DNA of 64,000 bases from Spirochaetota bacterium (GTDB lineage: Bacteria > Spirochaetota > UBA4802 > UBA5550), in contig CAXXHB010000003.1 of NCBI GenBank assembly GCA_963664815.2, forward strand, positions 1,344,001 through 1,408,000, given 5' to 3'. The notes under the pieces are model-generated. The model worked only from the letters and a program-made list of their open reading frames with translations. It was not told the DNA's origin and ran no database searches. Position 1 is the first letter of the stretch. The number at the start of each line of letters is the position of its first letter. A program made the translations under genes and the position numbers. This document shows positions 17,060-52,222 of the stretch, piece by piece.

Positions 17060-17997
17060 CATTTCCGGTTTCAATTAAAAAACCAGGGGAGCGGTGTGGT
17101 TAAAGAAAAGGGAAGGTGCGGTTCCATCGCTGACACGGGTATATTGATAATATTAATATGTTTTAAGAAAACAGCTTTCCTGTAGTGGTCCCCTCGATAC
17201 ATTTCCAGTTTCACTGGAAACACTCGGGGAGCGGTGTGGTTTAAGAAACCGGGAGGAGCTGTTCCGGAATTAATCCTGATATATTGATAATATTAATAAG
17301 TTTTAAGAAAACAGTTTTCCAGTAGTGATCCCCTCGATACATTTCCAGTTTTACTTAAAAACACTCGGGGAGCGGTGTGGTTTAAGAAACCGGGAGGAGC
17401 TGTTCCGGAATTAATCCTGATATATTGATAATATTAATAAGTTTTAAGAAAACAGTTTTCCAGTAGTGATCCCCTCGATACATTTCCAGTTTCACTTAAA
17501 AACACTCGGGGAGCGGTGTGGTTTAAGAAACCGGGAGGAGCTGTTCCGGAATTAATCCTGATATATTGATAATATTAATAAGTTTTAAGAAAACAGTTTT
17601 CCAGTAGTGGTCCCCTCGATACGTTTCCAGTTTCACTGGAAACACTCGGGGAGCGGTGTGGTTAAAGAAAAGGGAAAAGGCGGTTCCGGAGCTGACACGG
17701 GTATATCGATAATATTAATATGTTTTAAGAAAACAGCTTTCCTGTAGTGGTCCCCTCGATACATTTCCAGTTTCACTGGAAACACTCGGGGAGCGGTGTG
17801 GTTTAAGAAACCGGGAGGAGCTGTTCCGGAATTAATCCTGATATATTGATAATATTAATAAGTTTTAAGAAAACAGTTTTCCAGTAGTGATCCCCTCGAT
17901 ACATTTCCAGTTTTACTTAAAAACACTCGGGGAACGGTGTGGTTTAAGAAACCGTAAAAGGTGGTTCCGGAGCTGATACGGGCATATTGATAATATT
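17060..17997. repeat. 140/141-bp tandem array (~6.7 units) with REP-like hairpin
   Basis: GGGGAGCGGTGTGG at 17086, 17226, 17367, 17508, 17648, 17788 and a variant at 17929. Confidence 0.95.
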
Positions 17998-18208
17998 CCA
18001 TTACGAATAGTAAAAAAACGATGTGCAGAGAGCACATGACCCAATGTCTGTTCACTATGCAGAAAATCCCGCCAATCTCTTAATCCTGTAATCGTGTTCA
18101 GACTATTGAGGTATATTCTGATGTAACGTTGATTTCAATTATATATACTTGACAGATGATCAATATTTTGTAAAATATATATATAAAGAGATTCCGGGGC
18201 ATAATATT

Positions 18209-18493
18209 ATGCATAAAAATGAAATCATTGTATTTTTAAGAAATAATAAAACATTTTTAAGGGAAAGATATAATGTTACCAGGATTGGTTTGTTCGGGTC
18301 ATATGCTGCAGGGAATCAGAGAGAGGAAAGTGATATTGATATTATAGTTTCAATGCCGTCAGAGTTTGATAATTACTATGATCTTAAAGAATACCTCGAA
18401 TCGAATTTAAAACATAAAATTGATCTTGCCCTTGAAAAAAACATACGTGAACTTATTAAAGGGAGTATTGAAAAAGAGGTTATTTATGCCTGA
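18209..18493 (+). CDS. mntA: MNT-family nucleotidyltransferase antitoxin
   Basis: 'GLFGSYA....EESDIDII'. Confidence 0.88.
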   Translation: MHKNEIIVFLRNNKTFLRERYNVTRIGLFGSYAAGNQREESDIDIIVSMPSEFDNYYDLKEYLESNLKHKIDLALEKNIRELIKGSIEKEVIYA

Positions 18494-18914
18494 ACGTGAA
18501 ATATCTCTTTATATAATTGATATACTGATAGCAATAGACCGGATTAAAAGGTATACAGAAAATATTAATAACGCGTCTGATTTCATGAATAGTGAACTTG
18601 AATGGGACGCAACTATACGCGAGCTTCAAATCATCGGTGATGCGGCGAATATGCTTTTAAAGTATCAGATGATTGATCAATCTTACAGGAGAATTGTTGA
18701 CTTCAGAAATCAGATTACACATGCTTATTTTGGTATTGATAAAGATATTGTCTGGGAAGTAATAACTGAAAAGCTTCAGATATTTAATGATGATTTGATT
18801 GCTGTTGTAAAAACGAAAAAAATTGATTTAACAAAAGGTTTAGAAGCAGCTTTGAAAGAAAACAGCTCTAATCAGAAAGTTATAAGTTTTTTAAAATTCT
18901 TAAAAGAGATATAA
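18486..18914 (+). CDS. hepT: HEPN (DUF86) RNase toxin
   Basis: 'FRNQITHAYFGID' Rx4H motif; overlaps the MNT gene. Confidence 0.88.
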   Translation: MPEREISLYIIDILIAIDRIKRYTENINNASDFMNSELEWDATIRELQIIGDAANMLLKYQMIDQSYRRIVDFRNQITHAYFGIDKDIVWEVITEKLQIFNDDLIAVVKTKKIDLTKGLEAALKENSSNQKVISFLKFLKEI

Positions 18915-19237: not shown

Positions 19238-20019
19238 TCAATATGATTATATTTGTTTCCAACTTACTTTAAAAAGTATACGTGAACTTATTAAAGGGAG
19301 TATTGAAAAAGAGGTTATCTATGCCTGACCGTGATGATTGCTGTTGTAAAAACAAAAAGATTTCTCTTCATGATACAGCCTTGAGTTTAATTAAAGCCTC
19401 ATATATTGTCCTGCCCCTGTAGTCTGTCAAAGCTTGAGATGGTTATTTAACAGCGCCTTATAACGCCCCCCCGGCATCCCTGCTTGACATTAATACGTCA
19501 AAAACAGGGAAATTTAAAAATTTTCCGGGAAAAACAAAAAAAATTCTGATGTTGCTTCGCCGGATAGATGGCGAATACGTGGCGGATAAAAGGCATATAC
19601 ATGGCGACAGATGAGTATAATCACTGCAGCGTAATGCAGTTTTCGGCACGATTTGTGCATATAACACATAATATGTTTTTATTTCGCGGCAGCCAATTCA
19701 ACAAAGTGATTACCGGTTTTTTAAACAGGGGCAACTTTTTTGCAGGGTATAAGGGACGAAGCCACTTAAAAAAACCACTAAAGGTTTCCTGAGTGCTGCA
19801 AATGCCAATCTGGAAACAAGCCAGATATTTATTTGAATATTTGAAAAAAAGTATTGAAATAACTGCTGTTTAATGAAGGAATAAATTAAATGCATACAGA
19901 CCAATCCGGCAGGGATCATCATGGAAACCGTTTATTAAAAGATAAGGAGAAGGGGAGTTGCAACAGGGAATATTAGTGCGGACTGGTTTCAACGGGATGT
20001 TGTAAATGCCGGGACGGAA

Positions 20020-20187
20020 AACAGTTAAAGATAACTCATCAAGGGATAAATTTACTACACAACTGCCTGAATAAGATAACGAAAAATACAGAAACTATCA
20101 GGACGGTAAAGTCCTGATACAATTATGATTTATACACATGTATGTACGGGGAAATCCGGGATTATTAAGAGTCCACTGGAGATATAG
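20020..20187 (+). pseudogene. intI: Eroded integron-integrase (tyrosine recombinase) C-terminus, co-oriented with cassettes
   Basis: Manual translation NSSRDKFTTQLPE* ... IQKLSGR*SPDTIMIYTHVCTGKSGIIKSPLEI*, matching HxLRHSFATHLLE / IQELLGH / TTMIYTHV...SPLD. Confidence 0.7.
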
Positions 20188-20233
20188 GGGTTACTGTACG
20201 TAACTTCTTTCGCTTTTTTCCGGATTTTTCCTG

Positions 20234-20270
20234 TGTTGTGCGAAAGATTTTGGATAGGACAAGTTATATG
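20234..20270 (+). other. Putative attI site, crossover G|TT at 20263
   Basis: GGATAGGACAA-GTTATAT 75 nt downstream of the intI stop; no attC hairpin to its left; right side complementary to the end of cassette 1. Confidence 0.55.
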
Positions 20271-20322
20271 CAATTGCCCCCCTTTATGTTTATTAAGGGA
20301 TCGTTTATATAGAAGGATTTTT

Positions 20323-21933
20323 ATGTATAGTGTAAACAATGAAATTGTCAAGAAAGCCATTAAATTTTTAAAAAAAGATATCTATGATGACTGGTTTTGT
20401 GACATTCAAAACTTTGATGACATTTTTAATGACATCAATAATATAACCAATATAATAAATGATAAGATTAGAAGTGGAAAAGGTATTTATTTAGCAGATA
20501 ATCCAATACTATTTAATATCCCAAAAGAAAATGGTGCGTTCAGATATACATTAGAGCTATGTCCATTAGACAGATTAGCATATCATATATTTGGAATTCA
20601 ATTGATTCATTATTTAGATCGCTCCCTTCCATTCAATGTTTTAGGTCATCGAAAAAATTTAGATGATAAAATGTTATTCAAACCAATGATTGAGCAATGG
20701 AATAAATTTGAAAATTATACAAGGATTTCTGGAATAAATAAACATATAATCCAAACAGATATTTCAAATTATTTCGATTATATAAATATTAACAGACTCA
20801 GAATCGAATTAATCAACTCGGCATCTGATGCAAATCTATCTTCTGAAGACTTTGTAAATTGTATTTATGCAATAGAGTCGATATTTTCAATATTAAAACA
20901 AATATCATTCGATGGAGAAAGAGGCTTACCTCAAAATAAAGATATATCTTCATTTTTAGCAAATATATACATGAGACCACTTGATAAATGCTTAAAGGAT
21001 GCAATTTATTTTAGATATATGGATGATATACGAATTATAGCTGATACTAGAGCAGATGCTAACCGCTATATGCTTTGCATAATTGAAGAATTAAGAAAAT
21101 GTGGCTTATCATTAAATAGTAGCAAAACAAAAATTTTAATTCCGAACAGTCAAGAGCACTCACATTTTTGTTTTGAAATGGATTTAGAGGCAAAAAAAAC
21201 TGATTCACTGTTTAACAGTGGAAAAAGAAAATACGTAATGGAGTCATTTAATATAATTTATTCCAATGTTCTTAAATATCTTGATGAAAGTAAAGTTAAT
21301 GAAAGAAAATTTCGTTTTTACTCCAATAGATTAATTACATTTTTAAATGCAAAAGATGTTAAAGTACCAAATAAATTTAAAAAAGAGATTTCTAGCAAAT
21401 TAATTGGAGTTATTACGGCAAAACCAGATTCAGCTGATAAAATATGTGCTTTAGTAAAAGCCATTGGACCTTTTAAAAAGCTACAAGATGATCTCGTCAA
21501 GTGGGCAGTAACACCTGATAATTTAACATATGAATGGGCAGTATATACAATTATAAAAACACTTATAATACAATCCTATAAATCAAAAACTTTGGATAAT
21601 TATTGTAAAGCTTGTTTAAATGATATTAACACTCCTGATAATATTAGGGGTATCTCAGCTGTATATTTAAATAAAAAAGCAAAAAAATCTATCATTAACT
21701 TACTATCAAGAAATAATTCACATTTTTTCCAAAGACATTTAATAATCGCACTGTCAGAAATGAAACCAGATATTCTTTTACAAAATGATATTTCAGAAAA
21801 AATAATACCGGACTTTAAAGGGCAACACCAGAATCTATATAAACTTTCTTTGAATGCTAACTTTTTATATGTAAAAGAACATGAACGAATCACACAAAGA
21901 GAATTGATTCAAGAGTTGAAAAATTATGCTTAA
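20323..21933 (+). CDS. Reverse transcriptase, UG/Abi (defence-associated)-like, with alpha-helical C-terminal extension
   Basis: IPKENGAFR, QTDISNYFDYI, GLPQNKDISSFLANIYM, YFRYMDDIRI, GLSLNSSKTKI; AGAAGGA RBS before ATG 20323. Confidence 0.92.
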   Translation: MYSVNNEIVKKAIKFLKKDIYDDWFCDIQNFDDIFNDINNITNIINDKIRSGKGIYLADNPILFNIPKENGAFRYTLELCPLDRLAYHIFGIQLIHYLDRSLPFNVLGHRKNLDDKMLFKPMIEQWNKFENYTRISGINKHIIQTDISNYFDYININRLRIELINSASDANLSSEDFVNCIYAIESIFSILKQISFDGERGLPQNKDISSFLANIYMRPLDKCLKDAIYFRYMDDIRIIADTRADANRYMLCIIEELRKCGLSLNSSKTKILIPNSQEHSHFCFEMDLEAKKTDSLFNSGKRKYVMESFNIIYSNVLKYLDESKVNERKFRFYSNRLITFLNAKDVKVPNKFKKEISSKLIGVITAKPDSADKICALVKAIGPFKKLQDDLVKWAVTPDNLTYEWAVYTIIKTLIIQSYKSKTLDNYCKACLNDINTPDNIRGISAVYLNKKAKKSIINLLSRNNSHFFQRHLIIALSEMKPDILLQNDISEKIIPDFKGQHQNLYKLSLNANFLYVKEHERITQRELIQELKNYA

Positions 21934-23494
21934 TATTGCAATATTTTTTAATAACTCTCTTGAGTCGATTCCATTTGCATTAACTTTAATTAATAATAAA
22001 GTTAGAATTATTAGAGATTTTAGACGCATAAGTTTCCCAGATAATATTATTACATTAGGATACACTGACACTATTGATTCATTTAGAAATCAAAATATTC
22101 CATTTAATGCAACTCAAAGAAGAATTGAAATTTTATATGCTTTAACAATATACTATTCTAAGGGTGACCAGTCGAAAAAATGGAAATTTCGTAAACCTGA
22201 AATCATAGGAAAATTTATAGAACCTTCTTTAATCACCAGGCTGAAACAATATGAAAATAATGAAATATCATGGAATGAATTTAGTAAAATTCTTTTTAAT
22301 CAAAAGACAAATTTATTAACTGCAGTTGATAACGTATATAATCAACTTATTACCGAATATACAAAAAATTCACTAATTAAACTGGCTTGGCTTGAAACAG
22401 AATTTTTTATTGATAATTATTTTTTAATTAATCAATATAATGGAATCATGGTTGATAAAAATAAAATTGAAAAACAGCTATATGATATGAACTTTCAAAA
22501 ATATTCTGCATTATTGTATTTAGAAAAGAATTATAATATGGATATTTCAAGTTCATATTTATCTGATGAAAAAATAGACGAACTTATACTTTCTGAGTAT
22601 AAAGATTTCGAACAAACAGAAGAAATTACTAATTTAATTCAAGTGGTTAATACTTCTGATAAAAGAATTGAATCAATAACTACAGTTAAAGAATGTCGTA
22701 TTGATTACGCAAATCTGATCAAACATTATTCTGCCGATGATATCCCATATGTATACCCACAATATGATGTCATTGGCAGTAGTAGTGGTAGAATCTTTAT
22801 TGCAAGCCCAGGTACACAATACTTAAAAAAATCAAGAAGAGACATATTTTCAGCACAAAAGAATCATACCCTTACATATTTTGATTTTAGAAATTATGAA
22901 CCTGGCATCGTTGCAGGTCTATCAAATGATAAAGATTTTATAAAATATTACAATTCAGGAGATATGTATTCAAAAATTGCATCTGAAGTTTATAATGACC
23001 CCGAAAAAAGAAAAGATGTAAAAATTTCAATTCTTATGTTATTATATGGTATGTCTACAGAATCCTTGCATAACTTTTTTAAAAATAATAGTAATTTTAA
23101 TCCTGATGGTGTTATTCATATTTTAAATGGTTTTATACAACTACAAGAATGGAAAAAAAGCATTTTGGACGATGTATTGAATAAATATGCTGTTATTGAT
23201 AAAACATATACAAGAAAGTTTTTACCAAATAGTGATTGGAAAATTAAAACATCCGCAGTTAACCATATAATACAATCAACTGGTTCTCGGATTCTAAAGC
23301 GTTGCATTAAAGAAATTGTTAATATTGAAGGAATTAAAATACTAATACCAATGCACGATGCACTTCTATGTGAAATTATTGATAACAAATATGTTGAGAT
23401 TAAAGAACAAGTAATTCATAAAATGGAGAGCATCTTTACTGATGAAGTAACGCATACTTCCTCCAAAGTAATCGTAACGGATTTTTCATCGTAA
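21926..23494 (+). CDS. Stand-alone family A DNA polymerase lacking the 5'-3' exonuclease
   Basis: SSGRIFIASPGTQ (motif 2), FDFRNYEP (A), RKDVK...LLYG (B), AVNHIIQ (6), PMHDAL (C); 8-nt overlap with RT stop. Confidence 0.88.
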   Translation: MLNIAIFFNNSLESIPFALTLINNKVRIIRDFRRISFPDNIITLGYTDTIDSFRNQNIPFNATQRRIEILYALTIYYSKGDQSKKWKFRKPEIIGKFIEPSLITRLKQYENNEISWNEFSKILFNQKTNLLTAVDNVYNQLITEYTKNSLIKLAWLETEFFIDNYFLINQYNGIMVDKNKIEKQLYDMNFQKYSALLYLEKNYNMDISSSYLSDEKIDELILSEYKDFEQTEEITNLIQVVNTSDKRIESITTVKECRIDYANLIKHYSADDIPYVYPQYDVIGSSSGRIFIASPGTQYLKKSRRDIFSAQKNHTLTYFDFRNYEPGIVAGLSNDKDFIKYYNSGDMYSKIASEVYNDPEKRKDVKISILMLLYGMSTESLHNFFKNNSNFNPDGVIHILNGFIQLQEWKKSILDDVLNKYAVIDKTYTRKFLPNSDWKIKTSAVNHIIQSTGSRILKRCIKEIVNIEGIKILIPMHDALLCEIIDNKYVEIKEQVIHKMESIFTDEVTHTSSKVIVTDFSS

Positions 23495-23562
23495 ATTCAC
23501 GGTTCTGTAAAAATTATTAGTATATAAATAAATATATGCTAATGTTTAACTCGGGGGCAACT

Positions 23563-23689
23563 GCATATAACTTATAGAAGTCTTAACGATGTTGCCTCAA
23601 AAAAACCGCTAATCTTTATTAGCGGTATAAAAACATTAAACAGATAATTTCAATCTTCAGACAACAGCTATGTTAAGACTCTGTTGGAC
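23563..23689 (+). repeat. attC family A, copy 1
   Basis: GCATATAAC..GTCTTAAC / GTTAAGAC..GTTGGAC. Confidence 0.8.
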
Positions 23690-23700
23690 GAAACCACTGG

Positions 23701-23800
23701 GATCGAACAGTATATATAGGAATTTGAATGGGGGGAGAGGAGAGAATAGAAGAGGGCATCTTTGATCGAACAGTATATATAGGAATTTGAATCCGTTTTC
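23701..23800 (-). mobile_element. IS91-like oriIS end, duplicated
   Basis: Minus strand ATTCAAATTCCTATATATACT-GTTC twice (29-bp direct repeat 23701-23729 and 23764-23792). Confidence 0.6.
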
Positions 23801-24004: not shown

Positions 24005-24592
24005 CTAACCGTAAGTCGACAGGCCATGGATATAATGAATGTGTCCCTTTTCGCACTCCCTGCAGAGAGTTATATCAATCCTGAAATATTTCCAGAACAG
24101 AAATGCCGTATCCTCAAGAAGCTCTTTGCTTCGCTCATCCTGCTCCGCCAGGGGCTGACCAAGAAACATCCGGCAAAGGGCAAGATTGTTTGCCCTGTTA
24201 CGGTTTTCCATAAAACCGAAGAACCGGACTTTTTTAAATCCTTTAGGAAGAATATGCAGTACCAGACGTTTCATAAATTGAATCTCTGTAACAACCTCCA
24301 TTTTACTCTGCTTCCTTTTTCTATTGTAATAGCGGATGTAAACATTTCCATTCTCCGCTTTCTGTATCCGTTTATCACTGACTGCACTTTTAGCAACGTA
24401 TCTTGAAAGATAGCGGACTATGTTTTCCGGTTTCCTTTTATCTTTGCCGGGAAGCTGGGAGTTTACAACCCATGGAATATGCGCAAGCTGATTAAAAAGC
24501 TTTGCAATATCTTCAATACCGTCAGGTGTCTTTAAAGAACCGTTTTTAAGTTCTTTGCCGAGGTGGAATAAAAGCATTTTTCTGAATGTCAA
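24005..24592 (-). pseudogene. IS91-family Y2 transposase, C-terminal fragment
   Basis: 'YLSRYV' Y2 motif, 'FMKRLVLHILPKGFKKVRFFGF', C-terminal CxxC; 5' end cut by intron fragment. Confidence 0.85.
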
Positions 24593-24980
24593 AGGAAGCC
24601 TTTAAAAATCCCGATACTGTTCTTATTCAGGCTCTATGGAGATGGGGCAGATTCAGACACTCGATGAAAAATTCTTTATGGCTTAAAAACCTGTACTGGA
24701 AACGCATAGGAAACAGGGACTTAAACTTTCTGCTCTGATGAGGAGATTCTTATTACTGCAGGACACAATAAAATTGTACGGCACAGAATGATAAGTCTTG
24801 ACAGGAACCCATTTTTAAAAGAATATTCTGATTATTTCTACTATAGGAAAATGGGAATACAAACAGATAACAGCGGCTGGTTGTATAGAGAGCTTAAGAC
24901 GGCTTGAGCCGTATGAAGGGAAAGTTTCACGTACGGTTCTTATGGGGGGAAGGGGGTGCGAGCTTCCTGACCTACCAGAC
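24587..24980 (+). mobile_element. Group II intron 3' fragment (maturase tail remnant, D5, D6)
   Basis: D5 GAGCCGTATGAAGGGAAAGTTTCACGTACGGTTC (24906-24939), D6 ending CCTACCAGAC; upstream KIVRHRMISLDRNPFL. Confidence 0.88.
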
Positions 24981-25030
24981 TTTTCACCTGAATGCCGGAG
25001 ACATCGGTAACTCATAAAAGGATCGTATTT

Positions 25031-26414: not shown

Positions 26415-27236
26415 GTGTTAATATATAAAGACAAATTTACTACTTTTCAGAAAGAAAATACGAAAACATCATATCAATCAACAATTGAAAATTTTGAATA
26501 CTTTTTGTGTAAGACATATAATTCTGAAATTAATGAAAACAATATAACAAGGACACAGATGATAAGTTATAATCAGTATCTAGTTAATATTTTTAATGAG
26601 GAAAGAACAATTTCAACACATATTTATGGGATAAGATCTTATTTTAAATTTTTATACAGGAAAGGTTATATTGAAAGTGATCCATCGACAATTCTTGAAT
26701 CACCACAGATTAAAAGAAAATCACCAATAATAATTACTCCCGAAGATCTTGAACAAATGCTAGATTTTCGATTAAATTCATTAGAAGATTACAGATTAAG
26801 AGTAATCATATTAATACTGTATTATACAGGATTAAAAGTCTCAGAATTAGTAGAATTAGAAATTGATGATGTTAAAGAGAATACATTAGTAGTTAAAAAT
26901 CAATTCAGTGGTTTTAGAGAACTACCATTGAATGGTGTTACGATCCAGTCAATAAATCAATATCTACTTCAAAGAGATGAGTTAAATGTATATTCACAAT
27001 ATTTAATTCACAGCAAGAAAGGAAGCATGCTAAATAGAAAATCATTATGGAGAATTTTAAATAGATTTACTGATAAAGAAAAATTTGGAAGCGATATAAA
27101 TCCAAATACTTTTAGAGAAAATTATATTATAAATAAACTTTGTGAACTACAGTATTTTTTAGGTTATGATAATTTGGGTAGCTTAATGAATTATATTCAT
27201 GAACATATAAAATATCAAAAGACTAGTGAAGACTAG
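26415..27236 (+). CDS. XerC/D-like tyrosine recombinase with degenerate catalytic residues
   Basis: SAM-like N-domain; YYTGLKVSEL (R->K), NPNTFR (H->N), LGY (H->Y). Confidence 0.75.
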   Translation: MLIYKDKFTTFQKENTKTSYQSTIENFEYFLCKTYNSEINENNITRTQMISYNQYLVNIFNEERTISTHIYGIRSYFKFLYRKGYIESDPSTILESPQIKRKSPIIITPEDLEQMLDFRLNSLEDYRLRVIILILYYTGLKVSELVELEIDDVKENTLVVKNQFSGFRELPLNGVTIQSINQYLLQRDELNVYSQYLIHSKKGSMLNRKSLWRILNRFTDKEKFGSDINPNTFRENYIINKLCELQYFLGYDNLGSLMNYIHEHIKYQKTSED

Positions 27237-28386: not shown

Positions 28387-28808
28387 TGTCAAATGAAGCC
28401 TTTTAAAAATACCGATACTGTTCTTTTTCAGGCTCTATGGAGATGGCGCAGATTCAGGCACCCGATGAAAAAATATTTTATAGCTTAAAAAACGATGCTT
28501 TCAAACACATATGAAAAATGGACTTAAACTTTCTGTACTGATGATGAGATTCTTATATCTGCAGGACAGACACATTAAAATTGTACGGCACAGAATGATA
28601 ATTCTTGACAGGAACCCATTTTTAAAAGAAGATTCTGATTATTTCTGCTATAGAAAAATTGGAATACAAATGCTAACAGCGACTGGTATAGAGAGCTTAT
28701 GACAGCTTGAGCCGTATGAAAGGCGACCGGGGGAAGTGCCTGTGGTAAAAACTTTCACGAACGGTTCTTATGGGGGAAAGGGAGTGTAAACTCCCTGACC
28801 TACCAGAC
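28387..28808 (+). mobile_element. Group II intron 3' fragment, copy 2
   Basis: Same 5' boundary TGTCAAA.GAAGCC; D5 with insertion; ends CCTACCAGAC. Confidence 0.88.
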
Positions 28809-28849
28809 TTTTCGGGTGTATGAAACGGATTAGGCAAAAAGGAAAACTA

Positions 28850-29947
28850 ATGAATGACAAGTGGATGAAATTACTACTACGTTGGAAAAATATTCCAAAA
28901 GTGGAATTAAGTCGCACATCTTTTGAGATTGCGGGGTATCCTCATTTAGAAAATGTTAGTAGTAATATTTTAGCATTCTATTTTTGTGATGAAAACGAAC
29001 ATAATCTTGGAGACCTTTTTTTAAAATCAATACTCGAAATTATTTCAAGTTCAAACCATGATTCTTTTTCATTTGAGAACATTACTGTCCAAAAAGAAAT
29101 TACTACTGACGAAGGGAAAAGAATTGATTTGATAATAGAAACACCTGAATACTTAATTGGTATTGAAAATAAACTTTTTAGCTGGCTTCATAACGACCTA
29201 ACAAACTACCGAAAGCATCTAGAAAACTCAAAAAAATATGATAAGCAAAAAATATTTGCTGTAGTTTTATCGTTAAATCGACTTGATGACGATTTTTCAA
29301 GAAATAAAATCAATTCTAATGAATTTATTAATATTACTTATGACGATTTATTTTCTCGAGTAAGAAAAAATATTGGTGATTACATAAATAATTCAAATGA
29401 AAGATATTCACGAATACTACTTGAGTACATTGAAACAATAGAAAATTTAAAAGGAAGAAATATGGAAAATAAAGAAATGGAATTATTCTTTCAAGAACAT
29501 AAAGAGGATTTGAATGAACTAACACATAAATACAACGAATATTTACAACGTATCAGCAATAAAATATATGACTTGAAAAACATTATGTCAGAATTGGAAT
29601 TTTTTCGAACATTCAATAGAGAATGGATTTATGATAAATGTTGCTTGGTTTATGATTATTTAATAGATAATAATAGTGTTTCTATAGATACATACATTGG
29701 TACCGATGGCTGGTCTGTGGAACTCTTTGGAAGAAATACAAAATCTTCCTCTTATATTAATACAGAATTGATTTCAAATCATGAGCTATTAAGTATTGTA
29801 AATAATAATATAAAGAAAAGTGGCCGTAATGGAATAATAATATATGAAAATAGAGACATAAATGCTATTGAATCAACGAGTAAGAAACTATTAGAATTGA
29901 TAATTTTTCTTGAAAAAATAAAATCAGATAAAGGAAGTAATGCCTAA
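28850..29947 (+). CDS. PD-(D/E)XK nuclease family protein (PDDEXK_4-like)
   Basis: 'ENVSSNILAF', 'KRIDLII...IGIENK'. Confidence 0.85.
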   Translation: MNDKWMKLLLRWKNIPKVELSRTSFEIAGYPHLENVSSNILAFYFCDENEHNLGDLFLKSILEIISSSNHDSFSFENITVQKEITTDEGKRIDLIIETPEYLIGIENKLFSWLHNDLTNYRKHLENSKKYDKQKIFAVVLSLNRLDDDFSRNKINSNEFINITYDDLFSRVRKNIGDYINNSNERYSRILLEYIETIENLKGRNMENKEMELFFQEHKEDLNELTHKYNEYLQRISNKIYDLKNIMSELEFFRTFNREWIYDKCCLVYDYLIDNNSVSIDTYIGTDGWSVELFGRNTKSSSYINTELISNHELLSIVNNNIKKSGRNGIIIYENRDINAIESTSKKLLELIIFLEKIKSDKGSNA

Positions 29948-30200: not shown

Positions 30201-31358
30201 ATGAGTCAAAAAATTATGAATGAAATAAATATATTATTAGAAAAAATAAAACTCATTATCAAGTATAACGCAAATTTTTTTGAAAATGAGAATACTAATT
30301 TTAACATATTTCATGTTTGCGGTGTGAATCATTATGAAAATACTCATTCATCAATAATTGCTGAGTTTTTTAAAACTGATGGAACACATGGTTTTAAAGA
30401 AAAGTTTTTAAAGGCGTTTTTAGACGTTCTTTTATCTGAGAAAATAATAGATAATAATTTTAATTTTTCATTTTCTAATGTAAAAGTTAAAACTGAATTT
30501 ATTATTAATAATGGACGTATTGATATTATAATTACTAACACTGAAAAACAGGCTATAATAATTGAAAATAAAATTTATGCAGAAGATCAATTCAAACAGT
30601 TAAAACGTTATTCAGATTATGGTAAACAAGAATTCAAACAAAATTTTATTCTACTGTATCTTACATTGTTTGGTGATGAAGCATCTGAACAAAGCAGACA
30701 GAATGTAGAATATAAACAAATATCTTACAATCATATTGTAATCGAATGGTTGGAAAGATGTGTTGAAATATCAGCTCGTAATGCAGTAGTTAGAGAAACA
30801 TTAATTCAATATATCAATTATATAAAAAAACTAACAGGTCAAGATATGAAAACTCGAAGCAATAATGAATTGATTGAATTTTTAAGTAAAAAAGAAAATA
30901 TACAAGCCGCATTATTAATTGGGCAGAACATTAATGCTGTTATAAATAATATTGTTAATAATATATTCATCCCACAACTTACAAATCTTTGTAATGAATT
31001 AAATCTAATTAATATGTCATCAGAATGTGATTGGTTTAATGAATCATGGGCTGGATTTCAAATTAAAAATCCTAATTGGAAGTATTTTAAAATAGCATTA
31101 GAATTTGAAGCAAAAGGATTAAGAAATTGTATTATCGGATTTAATCATATTGATATTAAAGAAAGAAATGACATAACATTTAATGAACTTAAAAATCTTA
31201 TGAAAAGAAATAATACTAATTGGGCGTGGAATGATTTTCCTGTCTATCAGAGTTGGAATAATGATGCAATTATTGCAATTTTAAATGGAGAAATGGCTGA
31301 AATTTTTAAAACAGAAATAAAAAAATTACTTGATATTACGAATAATTTGACAATGTAA
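30201..31358 (+). CDS. PD-(D/E)XK nuclease family protein (PDDEXK_4-like)
   Basis: 'ENTHSSIIAEF', 'GRIDIII...IIIENKIYAEDQFKQLKRY'. Confidence 0.88.
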   Translation: MSQKIMNEINILLEKIKLIIKYNANFFENENTNFNIFHVCGVNHYENTHSSIIAEFFKTDGTHGFKEKFLKAFLDVLLSEKIIDNNFNFSFSNVKVKTEFIINNGRIDIIITNTEKQAIIIENKIYAEDQFKQLKRYSDYGKQEFKQNFILLYLTLFGDEASEQSRQNVEYKQISYNHIVIEWLERCVEISARNAVVRETLIQYINYIKKLTGQDMKTRSNNELIEFLSKKENIQAALLIGQNINAVINNIVNNIFIPQLTNLCNELNLINMSSECDWFNESWAGFQIKNPNWKYFKIALEFEAKGLRNCIIGFNHIDIKERNDITFNELKNLMKRNNTNWAWNDFPVYQSWNNDAIIAILNGEMAEIFKTEIKKLLDITNNLTM

Positions 31359-34891: not shown

Positions 34892-35019
34892 GCAGATAAC
34901 TTATAGAAGTCTTAACGTAGCTGCCCCAAAAAAACCGCTGGTCTTTATCAGCGATATAAAAATATTAAGCAGATAATTTTAATCTTCAGGCAGCAGCTAT
35001 GTTAAGACTTTTGTTGGAC
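34892..35019 (+). repeat. attC family A
   Basis: GCAGATAAC...GTTGGAC; GGGGGGAACAGCAGATAAC complements cassette start GTTATCTGCAATTCCCCCC (34158). Confidence 0.82.
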
Positions 35020-35064
35020 AAAACCACTGACATCGGGCATTTATTATAAAACATGGAGTGAAAA

Positions 35065-35709
35065 ATGGATTGTTGCAAAAAAGTAATTCAATATTCATTG
35101 TTAAGCGGTTTTATTTCAGCTGTAATCTATCCATTGACTGATATTATAGCCGGGAATATGTATAGAGGATATAGCTTTAATGAGCAAGCTGTAAGTGAAT
35201 TATTCGCGATTAATTCACCCGTTGCTCCATTAGTCGTTTTTCTTTTCTCAATATCGAGTGTTTTTTTAATTCTCTTTTCTGCAAGTGTCTTCATGTTTTC
35301 AAAGAATAAAAAAATTATGCGTTTTTTAGCCCTGATGTTATCAGGAAATGCAATCAATAGTCTGATTTTATGGAATTTCTTTCCAATGCATATGCGCAAT
35401 GTTCAGCCTGCATTTACTGATAAAATGCATGCAATTCTGGCAATAAATCCCTTTGTACTCATCAGTATCATCATCGGAGTTTTTATGTATAAAAACTGGT
35501 TCCGTTATTATTCTCTTTTAACCATATTGATATTATTCATTCCGGCATTTTTATCTTTTTCATATATCCCACTGTTATTATCACATCAGCCAACACCATG
35601 GATGGGGTTCACTGAACGTGTATCTCAGTATGGTCATTTGTCATGGCTCGCGGTGTTATCAATTATGTTATTCAATAAAAACAGAGCATTTCAGAAGGGT
35701 AGCCTTTAA
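35065..35709 (+). CDS. DUF998-like membrane protein, copy 1
   Basis: 'GYSFNEQAVSEL', 'FFPMH', 'GFTERV'; multi-TM. Confidence 0.75.
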   Translation: MDCCKKVIQYSLLSGFISAVIYPLTDIIAGNMYRGYSFNEQAVSELFAINSPVAPLVVFLFSISSVFLILFSASVFMFSKNKKIMRFLALMLSGNAINSLILWNFFPMHMRNVQPAFTDKMHAILAINPFVLISIIIGVFMYKNWFRYYSLLTILILFIPAFLSFSYIPLLLSHQPTPWMGFTERVSQYGHLSWLAVLSIMLFNKNRAFQKGSL

Positions 35710-36108
35710 AAATTCTGATACTGTTCTTTTTCAGGCTCTATAGAGATGGGGCAGATTCAGACACCCGATGAAAAATTCTTTATGGCTTAAAAACCGATGC
35801 TTTCAAACACATATGAAAAAGAGACTTAAACTTTCTGTTCTAATGATGAAATTCTTATATCTGCAGGACAAATTAAAATTGTACGGCACAGAATGATAAT
35901 TTTTGACAGGAACCCATTTTTAAAAGAAGATACTGATTATTTCTGCTATAAAAAACTGGAATTAAAACAGCTAACAGCCGCTGGTTGTATAGAGAGCTTA
36001 AGACGGCTTGAGCCGTATTAAAGGCGACCGGAGGAAGTGCCTGTGGTAAAACTTTCACGCACGGTTCTTATGGGGGAAAGGGGGTGTAAACTCCATGACC
36101 TGCCAGAC
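35691..36108 (+). mobile_element. Group II intron 3' fragment, copy 3
   Basis: Collinear with copies 1 and 2; D5 with insertion; ends CCTGCCAGAC. Confidence 0.85.
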
Positions 36109-36256
36109 TGTCGCTTCGAGGCTATAACTTTGGGACTGCTGTCCATGGCGGCGTTAATTGGGTAGAGTATATCATGAAATTTGACTATTAATGAAATGCT
36201 TACTATCATATAAACGAGGTGTAATTTTTTAAGTATTATGAATAAAACCATTCGGG

Positions 36257-39735: not shown

Positions 39736-39861
39736 TCGCATAATTTATGGAAGCATTAACGTAGCCGTCTAAAAACCGCTGGTCTTTATCAGCGGTATAA
39801 AAATATTAGAATAGATAATTTTAATCTTCAGGCAGCAGCTATGTTAAGACTTTTGTTGGAC
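39736..39861 (+). repeat. attC family A (degenerate left end)
   Basis: TCGCATAAT...CCGCTGGTCTTTATCAGCGG...GTTGGAC. Confidence 0.7.
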
Positions 39862-39906
39862 AAAACCACTGACATCGGGCATTTATTATAAAACATGGAG
39901 TGAAAA

Positions 39907-40551
39907 ATGAATTGTTGCAAAAAAGTAATTCAATATTCATTGTTAAGCGGTTTTATTTCAGCTGTAATCTATCCATTGACTGATATTATAGCCGGGAATA
40001 TGTATAGAGGATATAGCTTTAATGAGCAAGCTGTAAGTGAATTATTCGCGATTAATTCACCCGTTGCCCCATTAGTCGTTTTTCTTTTCTCAATATCGAG
40101 TGTTTTTTTAATTCTCTTTTCTGCAAGTGTCTTCATGTTTTCAAAGAATATAAAAATTATGCGTTTTTTAGCCATGATGTTATCAGGAAATGCAATCAAT
40201 AGTCTGATTTTATGGAATTTCTTTCCAATGCATATGCGCAATGTTCAGCCTGAATTTACTGATAAAATGCATGCAATTTTGGCAATAAATCCCTTTGTAC
40301 TCATCAGTATCATCATCGGAGTTTTTATGTATAAAAACTGGTTCCGTTATTATTCTCTTTTAACCATATTGATATTATTCATTCCGGCATTTTTATCTTT
40401 TTCATATATCCCACTGTTATTATCACATCAGCCAACACCATGGATGGGGTTCACTGAACGTGTATCTCAGTATGGTCATTTGTCATGGCTCGCGGTGTTA
40501 TCAATTATGTTATTCAATAAAAACAGAGCATTTCAGAAGGGTAGCCTTTAA
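39907..40551 (+). CDS. DUF998-like membrane protein, copy 2
   Basis: Four aa differences from 35065-35709. Confidence 0.75.
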   Translation: MNCCKKVIQYSLLSGFISAVIYPLTDIIAGNMYRGYSFNEQAVSELFAINSPVAPLVVFLFSISSVFLILFSASVFMFSKNIKIMRFLAMMLSGNAINSLILWNFFPMHMRNVQPEFTDKMHAILAINPFVLISIIIGVFMYKNWFRYYSLLTILILFIPAFLSFSYIPLLLSHQPTPWMGFTERVSQYGHLSWLAVLSIMLFNKNRAFQKGSL

Positions 40552-40737
40552 AAATTCTGATACTGTTCTTTTTCAAGCTCTATAGAGATGGGGCAGATTC
40601 AGACACCCGATGGAAAATTCTTTATGGCTTAAAAACCGGTACTTGAAAACGCACAGGAAACAGGGACTTAAACCTTTTGTTCTGATGATGAGATTCTTAT
40701 ATCTGCAGGACACGCTAAAATTATATGGTACAGAATT
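40533..40737 (+). mobile_element. Group II intron fragment, copy 4 (D5/D6 missing)
   Basis: Matches the first ~200 nt of copies 1-3. Confidence 0.75.
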
Positions 40738-51892: not shown

Positions 51893-51900
51893 GAAACATG

Positions 51901-52006
51901 GACTGGTTGTATAATAAGTTTCAGACGGCCCGAGTTGTACGATGGGAGACTTTCACGTATGGTTCTTATGCGGGACGGGGAGTGAATGCTCCATGACCTG
52001 CCGGAC
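51901..52006 (+). mobile_element. Group II intron D5-D6 remnant, copy 5
   Basis: GAGTTGTACGATGGGAGACTTTCACGTATGGTTC...CCTGCCGGAC. Confidence 0.7.
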
Positions 52007-52222
52007 TTGCATATTTATTATTTAAGGAGGAATTACAAAATGCATGATAATCCTGACTATAATTCAGCTCTTGAGTTATTTAAAAAACAAAATATTTTTT
52101 TAGTTTGATGGAATCAATAAAATAGAATAAAATGGCTTATCTTATCCGGGAATAATCTGTTTTATTTAAGGCACAATGGAAAAGGCGGAATGTGATTTGA
52201 AAATGAATAAAGGCTGGTAAAC

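What the first reader, a model, noticed from the sequence alone, without database searches (positions are those of the whole stretch)
20263..23689. RT + family A DNA polymerase two-gene system carried as the first integron cassette
Seen: a 536-aa YMDD RT with a helical C-terminal tail overlaps by 8 nt a 522-aa PolA-type polymerase with motifs A, B and C recognisable and no 5'-3' exonuclease. The pair is bounded by GTTATATGCAATTGCCCCC (20263) and GGGGGCAACTGCATATAAC (23553-23571), complementary at 18/19 nt, plus a full attC, so it is one mobile unit at the attI-proximal position. Only ~60 nt of non-coding DNA lies at each end, so no retron- or DRT2-type ncRNA fits. Established: UG/Abi RTs with helical repeats (AbiK-like) are anti-phage and can be protein-primed. 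From memory, RT-PolA pairing was noted computationally in UG surveys (UG9-like), but I know of no mechanism. Inference: an ncRNA-free, two-polymerase defence system in which the RT makes a primer or ssDNA and the PolA extends or copies it.
Basis: partly seen in the sequence, partly recalled or inferred. Interest (0 to 1): 0.92.

Follow-up and report, generated by a model that had tools for sequence, protein, structure and literature searches.

The report
UG9 reverse transcriptase–polymerase pair in cassette
This is a known but still uncharacterised candidate anti-phage gene pair, a reverse transcriptase followed by a Pol I-like DNA polymerase, sitting here as one compact cassette at the head of an integron-like gene array that has lost its integrase.

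Summary
The window has a 536-aa YMDD reverse transcriptase (20323-21933) and a 522-aa family A polymerase (21926-23494). They overlap by 8 nt and are flanked by an 18/19 inverted repeat and an attC-like site.

The pair is not new. PADLOC models RT_UG9_small (E 7e-112) and RTasPolA (E 7e-98) both match over their full length, and the UG9-PolA association is in print (PMC9226505). In 75 of 80 related loci the polymerase follows the RT directly; the other five run out of DNA.

The RT folds like Class 1 UG/Abi enzymes (UG15, DRT4, DRT6, AbiK). The polymerase is Klenow-like. It keeps the catalytic Asp residues, has HDA in place of HDE, and has a small N-terminal domain with no conserved exonuclease residues.

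The "first cassette" reading is supported. Five attI-like copies in this genome diverge exactly at GTTA (20263). The integrase here is reduced to a 35-codon remnant, and the intact genomic homologue falls below the IntI cut-off.

The mechanism is inferred only: untemplated, protein-primed ssDNA from the RT, copied or extended by the polymerase, as in DRT7.

Verdict: a new member of a known kind, of moderate interest.

The parts
19443..20262 (+). Integrase-deleted leader with an attI-like end. It holds the region normally upstream of the recombinase gene, joined to the last part of that gene, and then a conserved stretch ending ...GGATAGGACAA.
   Evidence: It is 89-91% identical to C3:2570407-2569568 and C3:3700121-3699342, both of which lie upstream of other arrays. 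The 203-nt end is 94% identical in those two copies. Five copies align up to the GTTA and diverge after it.
20080..20184 (+). Remnant of the tyrosine recombinase gene: the last 35 codons only.
   Evidence: tblastn of the intact 358-codon frame at C3:1972 kb matches residues 324-358 at 69% identity, E 2e-8. A terminator-like hairpin follows at 20186-20208.
20263..20281 (+). Left boundary of the cassette: an R'-type box GTTATAT plus 12 further bases, GTTATATGCAATTGCCCCC. The crossover is inferred between G20263 and T20264.
20323..21933 (+). Reverse transcriptase, 536 aa, UG9-small group (Class 1 UG/Abi). YMDD lies at nt 21016-21027. It has a helical C-terminal domain and an acidic tail ending ...NYA.
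   Evidence: PADLOC RT_UG9_small matches at E 7.4e-112, covering 13-540 of 541. Pfam RVT_1 matches. AlphaFold2 pLDDT is 90.4. The best solved folds are UG15, DRT6, DRT4 and AbiK.
21926..23494 (+). RT-associated family A DNA polymerase, 522 aa. D320 is at nt 22883-22885 and H477-D478-A479 at nt 23354-23362. There is no 5'-3' exonuclease. A small N-terminal exonuclease-like domain has no conserved catalytic residues.
   Evidence: PADLOC RTasPolA matches at E 6.9e-98, covering 6-474 of 475. Pfam DNA_pol_A matches. AlphaFold2 pLDDT is 89.9. Foldseek gives TM 0.72-0.78 (query-normalised) to apicoplast Pol, Aquifex Pol I, Bst large fragment and Pol theta.
23553..23571 (+). Right inverted-repeat arm, GGGGGCAACTGCATATAAC. 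The R''-type box ATATAAC is complementary to the cassette's first bases.
23563..23704 (+). attC-like repeat (type 1). It has an inner imperfect palindrome GTCTTAAC...GTTAAGAC, an internal hairpin and the R' box GTTGGAC (23683-23689). The cassette is inferred to end at G23683.
   Evidence: It has 5 in-register copies in the window (family D2) and 33 nhmmer matches in the genome. Folded as single-stranded DNA it gives z -4.5, and 0 of 200 shuffles fold as well.

Best explanation
The two genes are a UG9-small reverse transcriptase and its dedicated family A polymerase (PADLOC RTasPolA). This is a catalogued candidate defence-associated RT system whose mechanism has not been worked out. Here the pair forms one 3420-nt cassette (20264-23683) at the first position of an integron-like array whose recombinase gene has been deleted.

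Proposed working, all inferred:
1. Like the solved Class 1 UG/Abi enzymes that it resembles in fold, the RT starts DNA synthesis on one of its own tyrosines. It makes single-stranded DNA without a nucleic-acid template, so no ncRNA is needed.
2. The polymerase is translationally coupled to the RT. It is catalytically intact, dNTP-selective and lacks proofreading. It takes over the 3' end or the strand and copies or extends it, for example after snap-back, giving duplex or fold-back DNA.
3. That DNA, held in check in uninfected cells and accumulating on infection, stops the cell or the phage.

My odds are 0.95 for identity, about 0.8 for cassette status, about 0.7 for a defence role and about 0.35 for the two-step mechanism.
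For: Identity:
- Both PADLOC models match over their full length.
- RT catalytic residues are invariant.
- Polymerase residues D320, E325, R362, K366, Y374, G375, H477 and D478 are invariant or at least 90% conserved in 46 sequences.

Linkage:
- The polymerase lies directly downstream on the same strand in 75 of 80 loci from many phyla. The other 5 have at most 1248 nt of downstream DNA.
- The start overlaps the RT stop by exactly 8 nt in 37 of 75 loci. Most of the rest overlap by 4-35 nt.
- The same arrangement is annotated on plasmid pDSHI01.

Class 1 character:
- The best solved folds over about 500 columns are UG15 (9l9s), DRT6 (9wy8), DRT4 (9vdo), AbiK (7r06), AbiA and Abi-P2.
- DRT4, AbiK, AbiA and Abi-P2 are protein-primed, and DRT4 synthesis is template-independent (PMC12783706, passages read).

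No room for a large ncRNA:
- There are 59 and 58 nt of non-coding DNA inside the cassette.
- Rfam finds nothing there.
- No flank is conserved with the three closest loci.
- Median ORF-free flanks are 146 and 127.5 nt across the loci.

Precedent for an RT plus a second polymerase making the other strand:
- DRT7/UG10 (10.64898/2026.02.16.706125, passages read; 10.64898/2026.04.18.719102, abstract read).
- DRT3 (PMC13213688, first of two parts of the text read).

Defence role:
- UG9 is reported as enriched in defence islands (PMC9226505).
- Two other cassettes of this array match PADLOC PDC-S26.
- The RT was found in 0 of 40 relatives searched, which fits horizontal gain.
Against: - No experiment on UG9 was found in four literature searches. 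Protein priming, untemplated synthesis and defence are all carried over from relatives that share about 13-16% identity in the structural alignments.
- At sequence level the RT core scores best against group II intron and CRISPR-associated RTs, which copy RNA. An RNA template is therefore not excluded.
- A family A polymerase needs a primer, and none is shown.
- Motif C is HDA, not the usual HDE, in 95% of 71 sequences from the related loci plus the window. This could lower or change the activity.
- The flank measure uses ORFs of 80 aa or more as a stand-in for genes. Some loci have flanks of several hundred nt.
- Expression of the cassette is unknown. The promoter scan was not above background: 39 sites against 29.9 +/- 5.8 in shuffles. 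A terminator-like hairpin lies just upstream.
- Two PADLOC matches among the 10 array ORFs scanned is a thin basis for calling the array defensive. The other 8 had none.
Confidence: 0.4

Rival explanations
1. RNA-templated model. The RT copies an RNA, such as its own mRNA, a short RNA within the cassette, or a host or phage RNA. The polymerase then makes the second strand, as in classical reverse transcription or DRT2-type second-strand synthesis.
For: - The RT core (residues about 34-282) scores best at sequence level against RNA-copying RTs: Cas6-RT-Cas1 at 6e-19 and group II intron RTs at 1e-17.
- The NCBIfam group II model gives a partial match.
- A template-dependent polymerase as obligate partner fits a need to convert cDNA to duplex.
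Against: - Full-length fold matches go to Class 1 UG/Abi enzymes.
- PADLOC places the RT in UG9, which PMC9226505 files under Class 1.
- Rfam finds nothing in the unit.
- Only 59 and 58 nt are non-coding, and the flanks are not conserved with the closest loci.
Confidence: 0.2
2. The polymerase is the effector or a sensor rather than a copier of the RT product. For example, it might act on phage or host DNA ends once the RT or its DNA product releases it, or it might serve as a decoy for phage factors that target Pol I.
For: - The UG9-large variant adds a protease and an MBL nuclease (PMC9226505; 10.1101/2025.07.28.667249). This shows that the RT-polymerase core can be coupled to a separate killing module.
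- The genome keeps its own 907-codon Pol I-like frame elsewhere.
Against: - Polymerase catalytic residues are invariant across phyla, so synthesis itself is under selection.
- The strict adjacency and overlap with the RT fit a shared substrate better.
Confidence: 0.12
3. The pair is not a defence system. It would be a maintenance or replication module of mobile DNA, for instance making or repairing DNA during plasmid or cassette transfer.
For: - On pDSHI01 the pair sits between the coupling protein and relaxase genes and the type IV secretion genes.
- All 5 plasmid records with a relative are conjugative or mobilisable.
- Here the pair rides a cassette.
Against: - Most of the 80 loci are chromosomal contigs.
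- No match was found in 50,697 phage records.
- UG9 is reported as enriched next to known defence genes (PMC9226505).
- Every characterised Class 1 relative named is antiviral.
Confidence: 0.1
4. The cassette is a silent relic stranded in a decayed array with no integrase and no promoter.
For: - The integrase is reduced to 35 codons.
- A terminator-like hairpin lies directly upstream.
- The neighbouring region carries a truncated Y2-type transposase and group II intron fragments.
Against: - Both ORFs are intact and full length, and every family-invariant residue is present.
- An AAGGA ribosome-binding site lies upstream of the RT start.
- An intact recombinase homologue and four further attI-like copies exist in the same genome.
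Confidence: 0.08

Closest known systems
UG9 RT plus family A polymerase ('family D' of the earlier RT survey cited in PMC9226505; PADLOC models RT_UG9_small and RTasPolA)
   Same: Both proteins match over the full length of the models. The gene order is the same, and the small variant without protease or MBL genes is the commoner form, 60 of 79 in PMC9226505. I file the pair as a member.
   Different: Here it is carried as an integron-type cassette. Cassette-like flanks were not clearly seen in the other 73 loci tested. The best were L015 at 12/12 and L012 at 10/10, both at the level of the shuffles.
DRT7 / UG10 (RT fused to a primase-polymerase)
   Same: It combines a Class 1 RT with a second DNA polymerase activity. 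The published model is protein-primed first-strand synthesis by the RT followed by complementary synthesis by the second enzyme. This is the closest working analogy.
   Different: In DRT7 the second enzyme is a fused primase-polymerase that can start chains. Here it is a separate family A polymerase that needs a 3' end. The window RT scores only 67 bits against RT_UG10_large. It is not a member.
DRT4 (UG15), DRT6, AbiK, Abi-P2, AbiA: single-protein Class 1 UG/Abi polymerases
   Same: They share the overall fold of an RT core plus a helical repeat domain. A conserved tyrosine is a likely primer. Priming sites differ among these enzymes: Y44, Y61, Y298/303 and Y125.
   Different: Those enzymes work alone. 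UG9 always has the polymerase partner. Which tyrosine primes in UG9 is unknown. Candidates from conservation are Y535 and Y75.
Defence genes carried in integron cassettes (10.1101/2024.07.02.601719; 10.64898/2026.03.17.712381)
   Same: A compact defence candidate is bounded by attC-type sites in an array that holds other defence candidates.
   Different: A term search of those two texts found no 'reverse transcriptase' or 'DRT', and 'retron' only as phage escape mutants in the first. Their supplements were not seen. At 3.4 kb and two genes this cassette is large. The recombinase lies in the same orientation as the cassettes and fails the IntI cut-off.

Membership tests
UG9-small + RTasPolA candidate DRT system | RT matches the UG9-small profile over its full length, better than any other UG/Abi group | tested here: met
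   It scores 372.9 bits, E 7.4e-112, covering 13-540 of 541. The next best are UG9_large at 194.8 bits and UG21 at 150.7 bits.
UG9-small + RTasPolA candidate DRT system | A family A polymerase of the RT-associated type lies directly downstream | tested here: met
   RTasPolA scores 326.6 bits, E 6.9e-98, covering 6-474 of 475. The same arrangement is seen in 75 of 80 loci.
UG9-small + RTasPolA candidate DRT system | No N-terminal protease on the RT and no upstream MBL hydrolase (this separates the small variant from the large one) | tested here: met
   The RT starts at model position 13. The upstream DNA is the recombinase remnant and the attI-like region.
UG9-small + RTasPolA candidate DRT system | Anti-phage activity that depends on the RT active site | not testable with these tools
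   PMC9226505 reports only defence-island enrichment for UG9. Searches found no experiment.
Class 1 UG/Abi RT | RT core followed by a C-terminal alpha-helical repeat domain | tested here: met
   The AlphaFold2 model is helical from 277 to 535. Full-length Foldseek matches go to UG15, DRT6, DRT4, AbiK, AbiA and Abi-P2.
Class 1 UG/Abi RT | [quoted passage not shown] | not testable with these tools
   Only candidate priming tyrosines can be named from conservation.
Family A DNA polymerase | Motifs A, B and C with the two catalytic aspartates | tested here: met
   D320 and D478 are invariant, and so are R362, K366 and G375. Motif C reads HDA, not HDE. The fold matches Klenow-type enzymes.
Family A DNA polymerase | Active 3'-5' proofreading site (conserved acidic residues in the N-terminal domain) | tested here: not met
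   No invariant or at-least-90% column falls in residues 1-149 of 46 sequences. The domain is present only as a reduced fold.
Integron | Adjacent integron integrase carrying the IntI-specific extra segment | tested here: not met
   Only 35 terminal codons remain beside the cassette. The intact genomic homologue scores 220.7 bits against the cut-off of 265 on TIGR02249. Model positions 180-234 are unmatched there and are spanned by only 14 codons (my count from the coordinates). It passes NF040815, a XerA/integron integrase model, at 235.3 bits against 220. Its best solved relative is IntI4.
Integron | attI-type junction: conserved on the integrase side and different cassettes after a GTT core | tested here: met
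   Five copies in the genome align up to ...ACAA|GTTA and then diverge.
Integron | attC sites: imperfect palindromes with RYYYAAC and GTTRRRY boxes between same-strand ORFs, with the R'' box complementary to the cassette's own first bases | tested here: inconclusive
   The repeats recur between + strand ORFs. The start/R'' complementarity was found for 4 of 7 type-1 sites and not for 3. No attC covariance model was available, and some boxes depart from the consensus.
Retron or DRT2/DRT9-type ncRNA-dependent RT | Conserved structured ncRNA next to the RT | tested here: not met
   Rfam at gathering thresholds finds only two group II intron fragments, both outside the unit. No flank is conserved with the closest loci. 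Flanks are short. A very short RNA or one within the coding sequence is not excluded.
Group II intron RT/maturase | Passes the maturase family model | tested here: not met
   TIGR04416 gives 70.7 bits against a cut-off of 300, covering the RT core only.

The most novel reading that the evidence does not exclude
UG9 plus PolA would be a two-enzyme, RNA-free DNA-writing machine.

- The near-invariant tyrosine at the penultimate position of the RT's acidic, disordered tail would have one of two roles. It could be the covalent primer for untemplated synthesis. Or it could be a docking peptide for the polymerase, like the acidic C-terminal tails that recruit partners to phage T7 DNA polymerase (recalled).
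- The exonuclease-dead, HDA-type polymerase would then turn the protein-linked strand into fold-back duplex DNA, which would be the toxic or signalling product.
- The cassette would prove that 3.4 kb with under 60 nt of leader is the whole system.
Probability: 0.2. Interest if true: 0.75.

Novelty: new member of a known kind. Interest (0 to 1): 0.45.

Why it matters
UG9 plus PolA is one of the RT-based defence candidates that has been catalogued for years without a mechanism. Its cousins DRT2, DRT3, DRT4, DRT7 and DRT9 each turned out to make an unexpected DNA product.

This instance adds three practical things:
- The cassette boundaries give a natural minimal unit to clone (20264-23683). This argues that no long flanking RNA gene is needed.
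- There are specific residues to mutate: YMDD in the RT; D320, D478 and A479 in the polymerase; and Y535 and Y75 as candidate priming tyrosines.
- It is an example of a two-gene RT system moving as an integron-type cassette. Two papers on defence cassettes do not mention this in their main texts.

It does not change what kind of system this is.

Tried and rejected
- Complex prediction of the polymerase with RT residues 285-536: no verdict, score 0.11 against a mark of 0.32. It says nothing either way. The RT N-terminal half was not tried because of the size limit.
- Sequencing runs: 5 holders are listed and no RNA holder.
- Laying four runs: all were contigs that break at the repeats. The few joints had short sides (22-64 letters) or appear to come from other copies of the repeats. 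I draw nothing from them about excision or expression.
- Promoter scan: 39 sites against 29.9 +/- 5.8 in shuffles, which is not informative in this A+T-rich DNA.
- Search for cassette-type inverted repeats around the pair in 73 other loci. The fixed-length version could not discriminate. The local-score version gave only L015 and L012, at shuffle level.
- Profile search of solved structures to map the priming tyrosine. It aligned only the RT core to group II and Cas-associated RTs and did not resolve the question.
- Folding the attC-like site as single-stranded DNA. It is more stable than shuffles, but the minimum-energy fold shows the internal hairpin and not the long-range R/L pairing that I read by eye.
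- One repeat finder failed on a parameter limit and was not repeated.
- Rejected readings: retron, group II intron and DRT2-type system (see membership tests).
- Also rejected: the 566-aa GTG frame for the RT, because it crosses the cassette boundary and exceeds the homologues.


Full report
**What is there.**
The + strand carries two overlapping ORFs. One runs 20323-21933 (536 aa from the ATG) and the other 21926-23494 (522 aa). They share 8 nt.

- The first matches Pfam RVT_1 and the second Pfam DNA_pol_A.
- Against PADLOC, the first matches RT_UG9_small at E 7.4e-112 over positions 13-540 of 541. The second matches RTasPolA at E 6.9e-98 over 6-474 of 475.
- NCBIfam gives only sub-threshold matches. 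The group II maturase model scores 70.7 bits against a cut-off of 300, and the Pol I models score about 40-46 bits against cut-offs of 389-720.

The pair already has dedicated models in a defence-system database.

**What is in print.**
In PMC9226505 (passages read) UG9 is the former "family D" RT.
- It is split into a large variant (19 of 79, with a protease fusion and an upstream MBL hydrolase) and a small variant (60 of 79).
- It is filed with Class 1 UG/Abi RTs.
- It is listed among groups with strong defence-island enrichment but without experimental validation.

Four full-text searches found no paper on a UG9 mechanism. A 2026 overview lists DRT1-9 with no UG9 entry (PMC13213688, first of two parts read). 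A 2025 preprint mentions the UG9 nuclease-protease variant only in structure predictions.

**Linkage.**
A search of 5.8 billion proteins gave 230 relatives at E <= 1e-10 among the 8000 candidates scored. A scan of one genome per species confirmed 266 relatives, of which 80 loci were kept.
- In 75 of the 80 the polymerase lies directly downstream on the same strand. The other five have 1 to 1248 nt of downstream DNA, too little to hold it.
- The polymerase start overlaps the RT stop by exactly 8 nt in 37 of 75. Most of the rest overlap by 4 to 35 nt, and a few frames are broken or gapped.
- The loci span many phyla. The three closest (63, 57 and 61% RT identity) are from a Methylococcaceae, a Desulfobulbaceae and a Treponemataceae assembly.
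- The RT was found in none of 40 relatives of the window's genome: 7 of the same genus, 17 of the same family and 16 of the same order.
- Five plasmid records (three distinct plasmids) carry a relative. On pDSHI01 the pair is annotated "RNA-directed DNA polymerase" and "DNA polymerase" with the same 8-nt overlap.
- No phage record matched.

**The RT.**
- Y232, D234 and D235 (YMDD) and D146 are invariant in 37 sequences. So is a GLPQN motif at 201-205, and so are the N-terminal acidic residues D19, D22, D27 and D33 (W24 is at least 90% conserved).
- The AlphaFold2 model (pLDDT 90.4) has an RT core followed by helices from 277 to 535. Only the last three residues are disordered.
- Foldseek's best solved matches are UG15, DRT6, DRT4, AbiK, AbiA and Abi-P2 over about 490-650 alignment columns, ahead of group II intron RTs and retrons.
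- At sequence level, however, the core alone scores best against Cas6-RT-Cas1 and group II intron RTs.
- Priming tyrosines lie at different places in the solved Class 1 enzymes (PMC12783706, passages read), so none can be transferred by homology.
- A tyrosine at the penultimate position of an acidic tail, typically ...DEISxY(D/E), is present in 65 of 78 RT C-termini. It is kept in loci where its codon is TAC and so cannot form the polymerase's ATG. The 13 without it include broken frames and a Bacteroidota-type tail ending ...PDFIS.
- Y75 is also at least 90% conserved.

**The polymerase.**
- Y318, D320, E325, R362, K366, G375, Q450, K458, H477 and D478 are invariant in 46 sequences, and Y374 is at least 90% conserved.
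- By the usual Klenow numbering (recalled), these correspond to the two catalytic aspartates, the motif A glutamate that excludes ribonucleotides, and the motif B Arg/Lys/Tyr.
- Motif C reads HDA. A479 is alanine in 95% of the 72 sequences, where most family A enzymes have glutamate (recalled).
- The model (pLDDT 89.9) aligns over its whole length to Klenow-type fragments: apicoplast Pol, Aquifex Pol I, Bst large fragment, Pol theta and Pol nu, at query-normalised TM 0.64-0.78.
- There is therefore no 5'-3' exonuclease. The N-terminal roughly 110-150 residues are a reduced exonuclease-like domain. No column in residues 1-149 reaches 90% conservation, so a proofreading site is not conserved.
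- The genome has a separate 907-codon Pol I-like frame elsewhere.

**The cassette and the array.**
- GTTATATGCAATTGCCCCC at 20263 and its complement at 23553-23571 match at 18/19, with 0.02 matches expected by chance. With two more bases the match is 20/21, a score of 18 against a maximum of 11 in shuffles.
- The right arm runs into a 142-nt repeat (23563-23704). That repeat has 8 copies in the window between 23.5 and 43.2 kb and 33 nhmmer matches in the genome, clustered in about six places.
- The repeat contains an imperfect palindrome GTCTTAAC...GTTAAGAC and ends in GTTGGAC (23683-23689).
- A second, shorter hairpin repeat ends in ...TCTTAAC|GTTATnTG (families D4 and D13).
- For 4 of 7 type-1 sites, the 14 nt before the repeat are complementary (at most 2 mismatches) to a sequence that begins right after the AAC of a preceding repeat or the end of the attI-like region (the ACAA before GTTA). 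That is the pattern expected if R'' and the cassette's first bases come from one attC. For the other 3 sites no partner was found.
- From about 18 to 57 kb most listed ORFs of 100 aa or more are on the + strand, and G+C drops to 25-34% in most of the 1-kb bins between 18 and 43 kb.

**The integrase.**
- No frame in the genome passes the integron-integrase model.
- The best candidate is a 357-aa protein at C3 about 1972 kb. It scores 220.7 bits against a cut-off of 265, and model positions 180-234 are spanned by only 14 codons. It passes NF040815 (site-specific tyrosine recombinase/integron integrase, 235.3 bits against 220). Its best solved relative is IntI4.
- Its last 35 residues match the window at 20080-20184 at 69% identity.
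- Window 19443-20275 is 89-91% identical to two other places that lie upstream of other repeat clusters. In the copy with the intact gene, the matching DNA is split by the gene.
- Five copies align up to ...ACAA|GTTA and diverge from there.
- Only a 38-nt fragment of the attI-like stretch was found in one of 7 genomes of the same genus.

I read this as an integron-like system with the recombinase in the same orientation as the cassettes. It is present in several copies, three of which have lost the gene. The RT-polymerase unit is the first cassette of one such copy. Strictly, the integrase criterion for an integron is not met.

**ncRNA.**
- Inside the cassette there are 59 nt before the RT and 58 nt after the polymerase.
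- Rfam finds only two group II intron fragments in the window, both outside the unit.
- Flanks do not align with those of the three closest loci.
- Using ORFs of 80 aa or more as a rough proxy, the ORF-free flank has a median of 146 nt upstream (at most 100 nt in 23 of 73 loci). Downstream the median is 127.5 nt (at most 100 nt in 29 of 70).
- A long flanking ncRNA of the DRT2, DRT9 or retron kind is unlikely. A short one, or one inside the coding region, is not excluded.

**How it most likely works (inferred).**
- Class 1 relatives start DNA on their own tyrosine and need no template.
- In DRT7/UG10 a fused second polymerase then makes the complementary strand. In DRT3 two RTs make the two strands.
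- By analogy, the UG9 RT would make protein-linked single-stranded DNA. The coupled, proofreading-free, dNTP-selective polymerase would extend or copy it.
- Because a family A enzyme cannot start chains, the 3' end would have to fold back or be handed over.
- The large variant's extra nuclease-protease pair suggests that the RT-polymerase core is the sensing or signal-making part. In the small variant the DNA product itself would be the effector.

None of these steps was tested here.

**Verdict.**
The system is already catalogued, so this is a new member of a known kind in an unusual carrier. Its value lies in the natural delimitation of the unit and in a few concrete residues to test.

Noticed in passing
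window 17062-17997: Seven head-to-tail copies of a 140-141-nt unit, 71-100% identical to the reference copy, lie just upstream of the MNT/HepT pair. The 50-aa ORFs listed there are repeats of one another and are probably not genes. The function is unknown.
   Followed up: no
window 24591-24994, 28392-28822, 35695-36122, 40537-40712, 51895-52020: A repeated segment of about 400 nt ends in group II intron domain V/VI. Rfam RF00029 matches at 24904-24980 (59.9 bits) and 28707-28808 (42.9 bits). The two matches end 11 nt before the start codons at 24992 and 28820. No intron-encoded protein lies beside them. Group II introns that target attC sites are known (recalled). These could be 3' remnants or ORF-less derivatives.
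   Followed up: partly
window 24005-24592 (- strand): A truncated Y2_Tnp-type (IS91-like) transposase fragment of 195 aa matches the last two thirds of the Pfam model. It lies between the RT-polymerase cassette and the next ORF.
   Followed up: no
window 28820-29947 and 30201-31358: Two neighbouring cassettes each encode a PD-(D/E)XK protein that matches the PADLOC candidate defence family PDC-S26, at E 1.6e-88 and 1.1e-87. The other 8 array ORFs scanned had no PADLOC match.
   Followed up: partly
window 18149-18914 and 19271-19334: A nucleotidyltransferase/HepT-like toxin-antitoxin pair lies just upstream of the integrase-deleted leader. A 64-nt piece of its gene junction is repeated at 19271-19334 at 94% identity.
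   Followed up: no
window 26415-27236: A 273-aa XerD-like tyrosine recombinase is encoded inside the array, between a 3'-truncated type-1 repeat and a type-2 repeat, as if it were itself a cassette.
   Followed up: no
G000 C3 at about 1972 kb, 2570 kb, 3590 kb and 3700 kb, plus the window: There are five copies of the attI-like region in one genome: one with an intact recombinase gene, one with a broken one, and three with the same deletion (94% identical over 203 nt). Each lies near clusters of the same 142-nt repeat. This is a multi-copy integron-like system with the recombinase co-oriented with the cassettes.
   Followed up: partly
window 34971-35270 and 39813-40112: A 300-nt stretch is repeated at 99% identity 4842 nt apart. 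It covers the starts of two 214-aa ORFs (35065-35709 and 39907-40551), so a cassette appears to be duplicated within the array.
   Followed up: no
window 23605-23626 (- strand): The hairpin inside the type-1 attC-like repeat is followed by a T-run only on the - strand. It would therefore terminate transcription coming against the cassettes, not along them.
   Followed up: no
RT residues 19-33 (window 20377-20421): D19, D22, D27 and D33 are invariant across 37 UG9 RTs, and W24 is at least 90% conserved (consensus DLxDDWFxDP). The role is unknown and I did not find it discussed.
   Followed up: no
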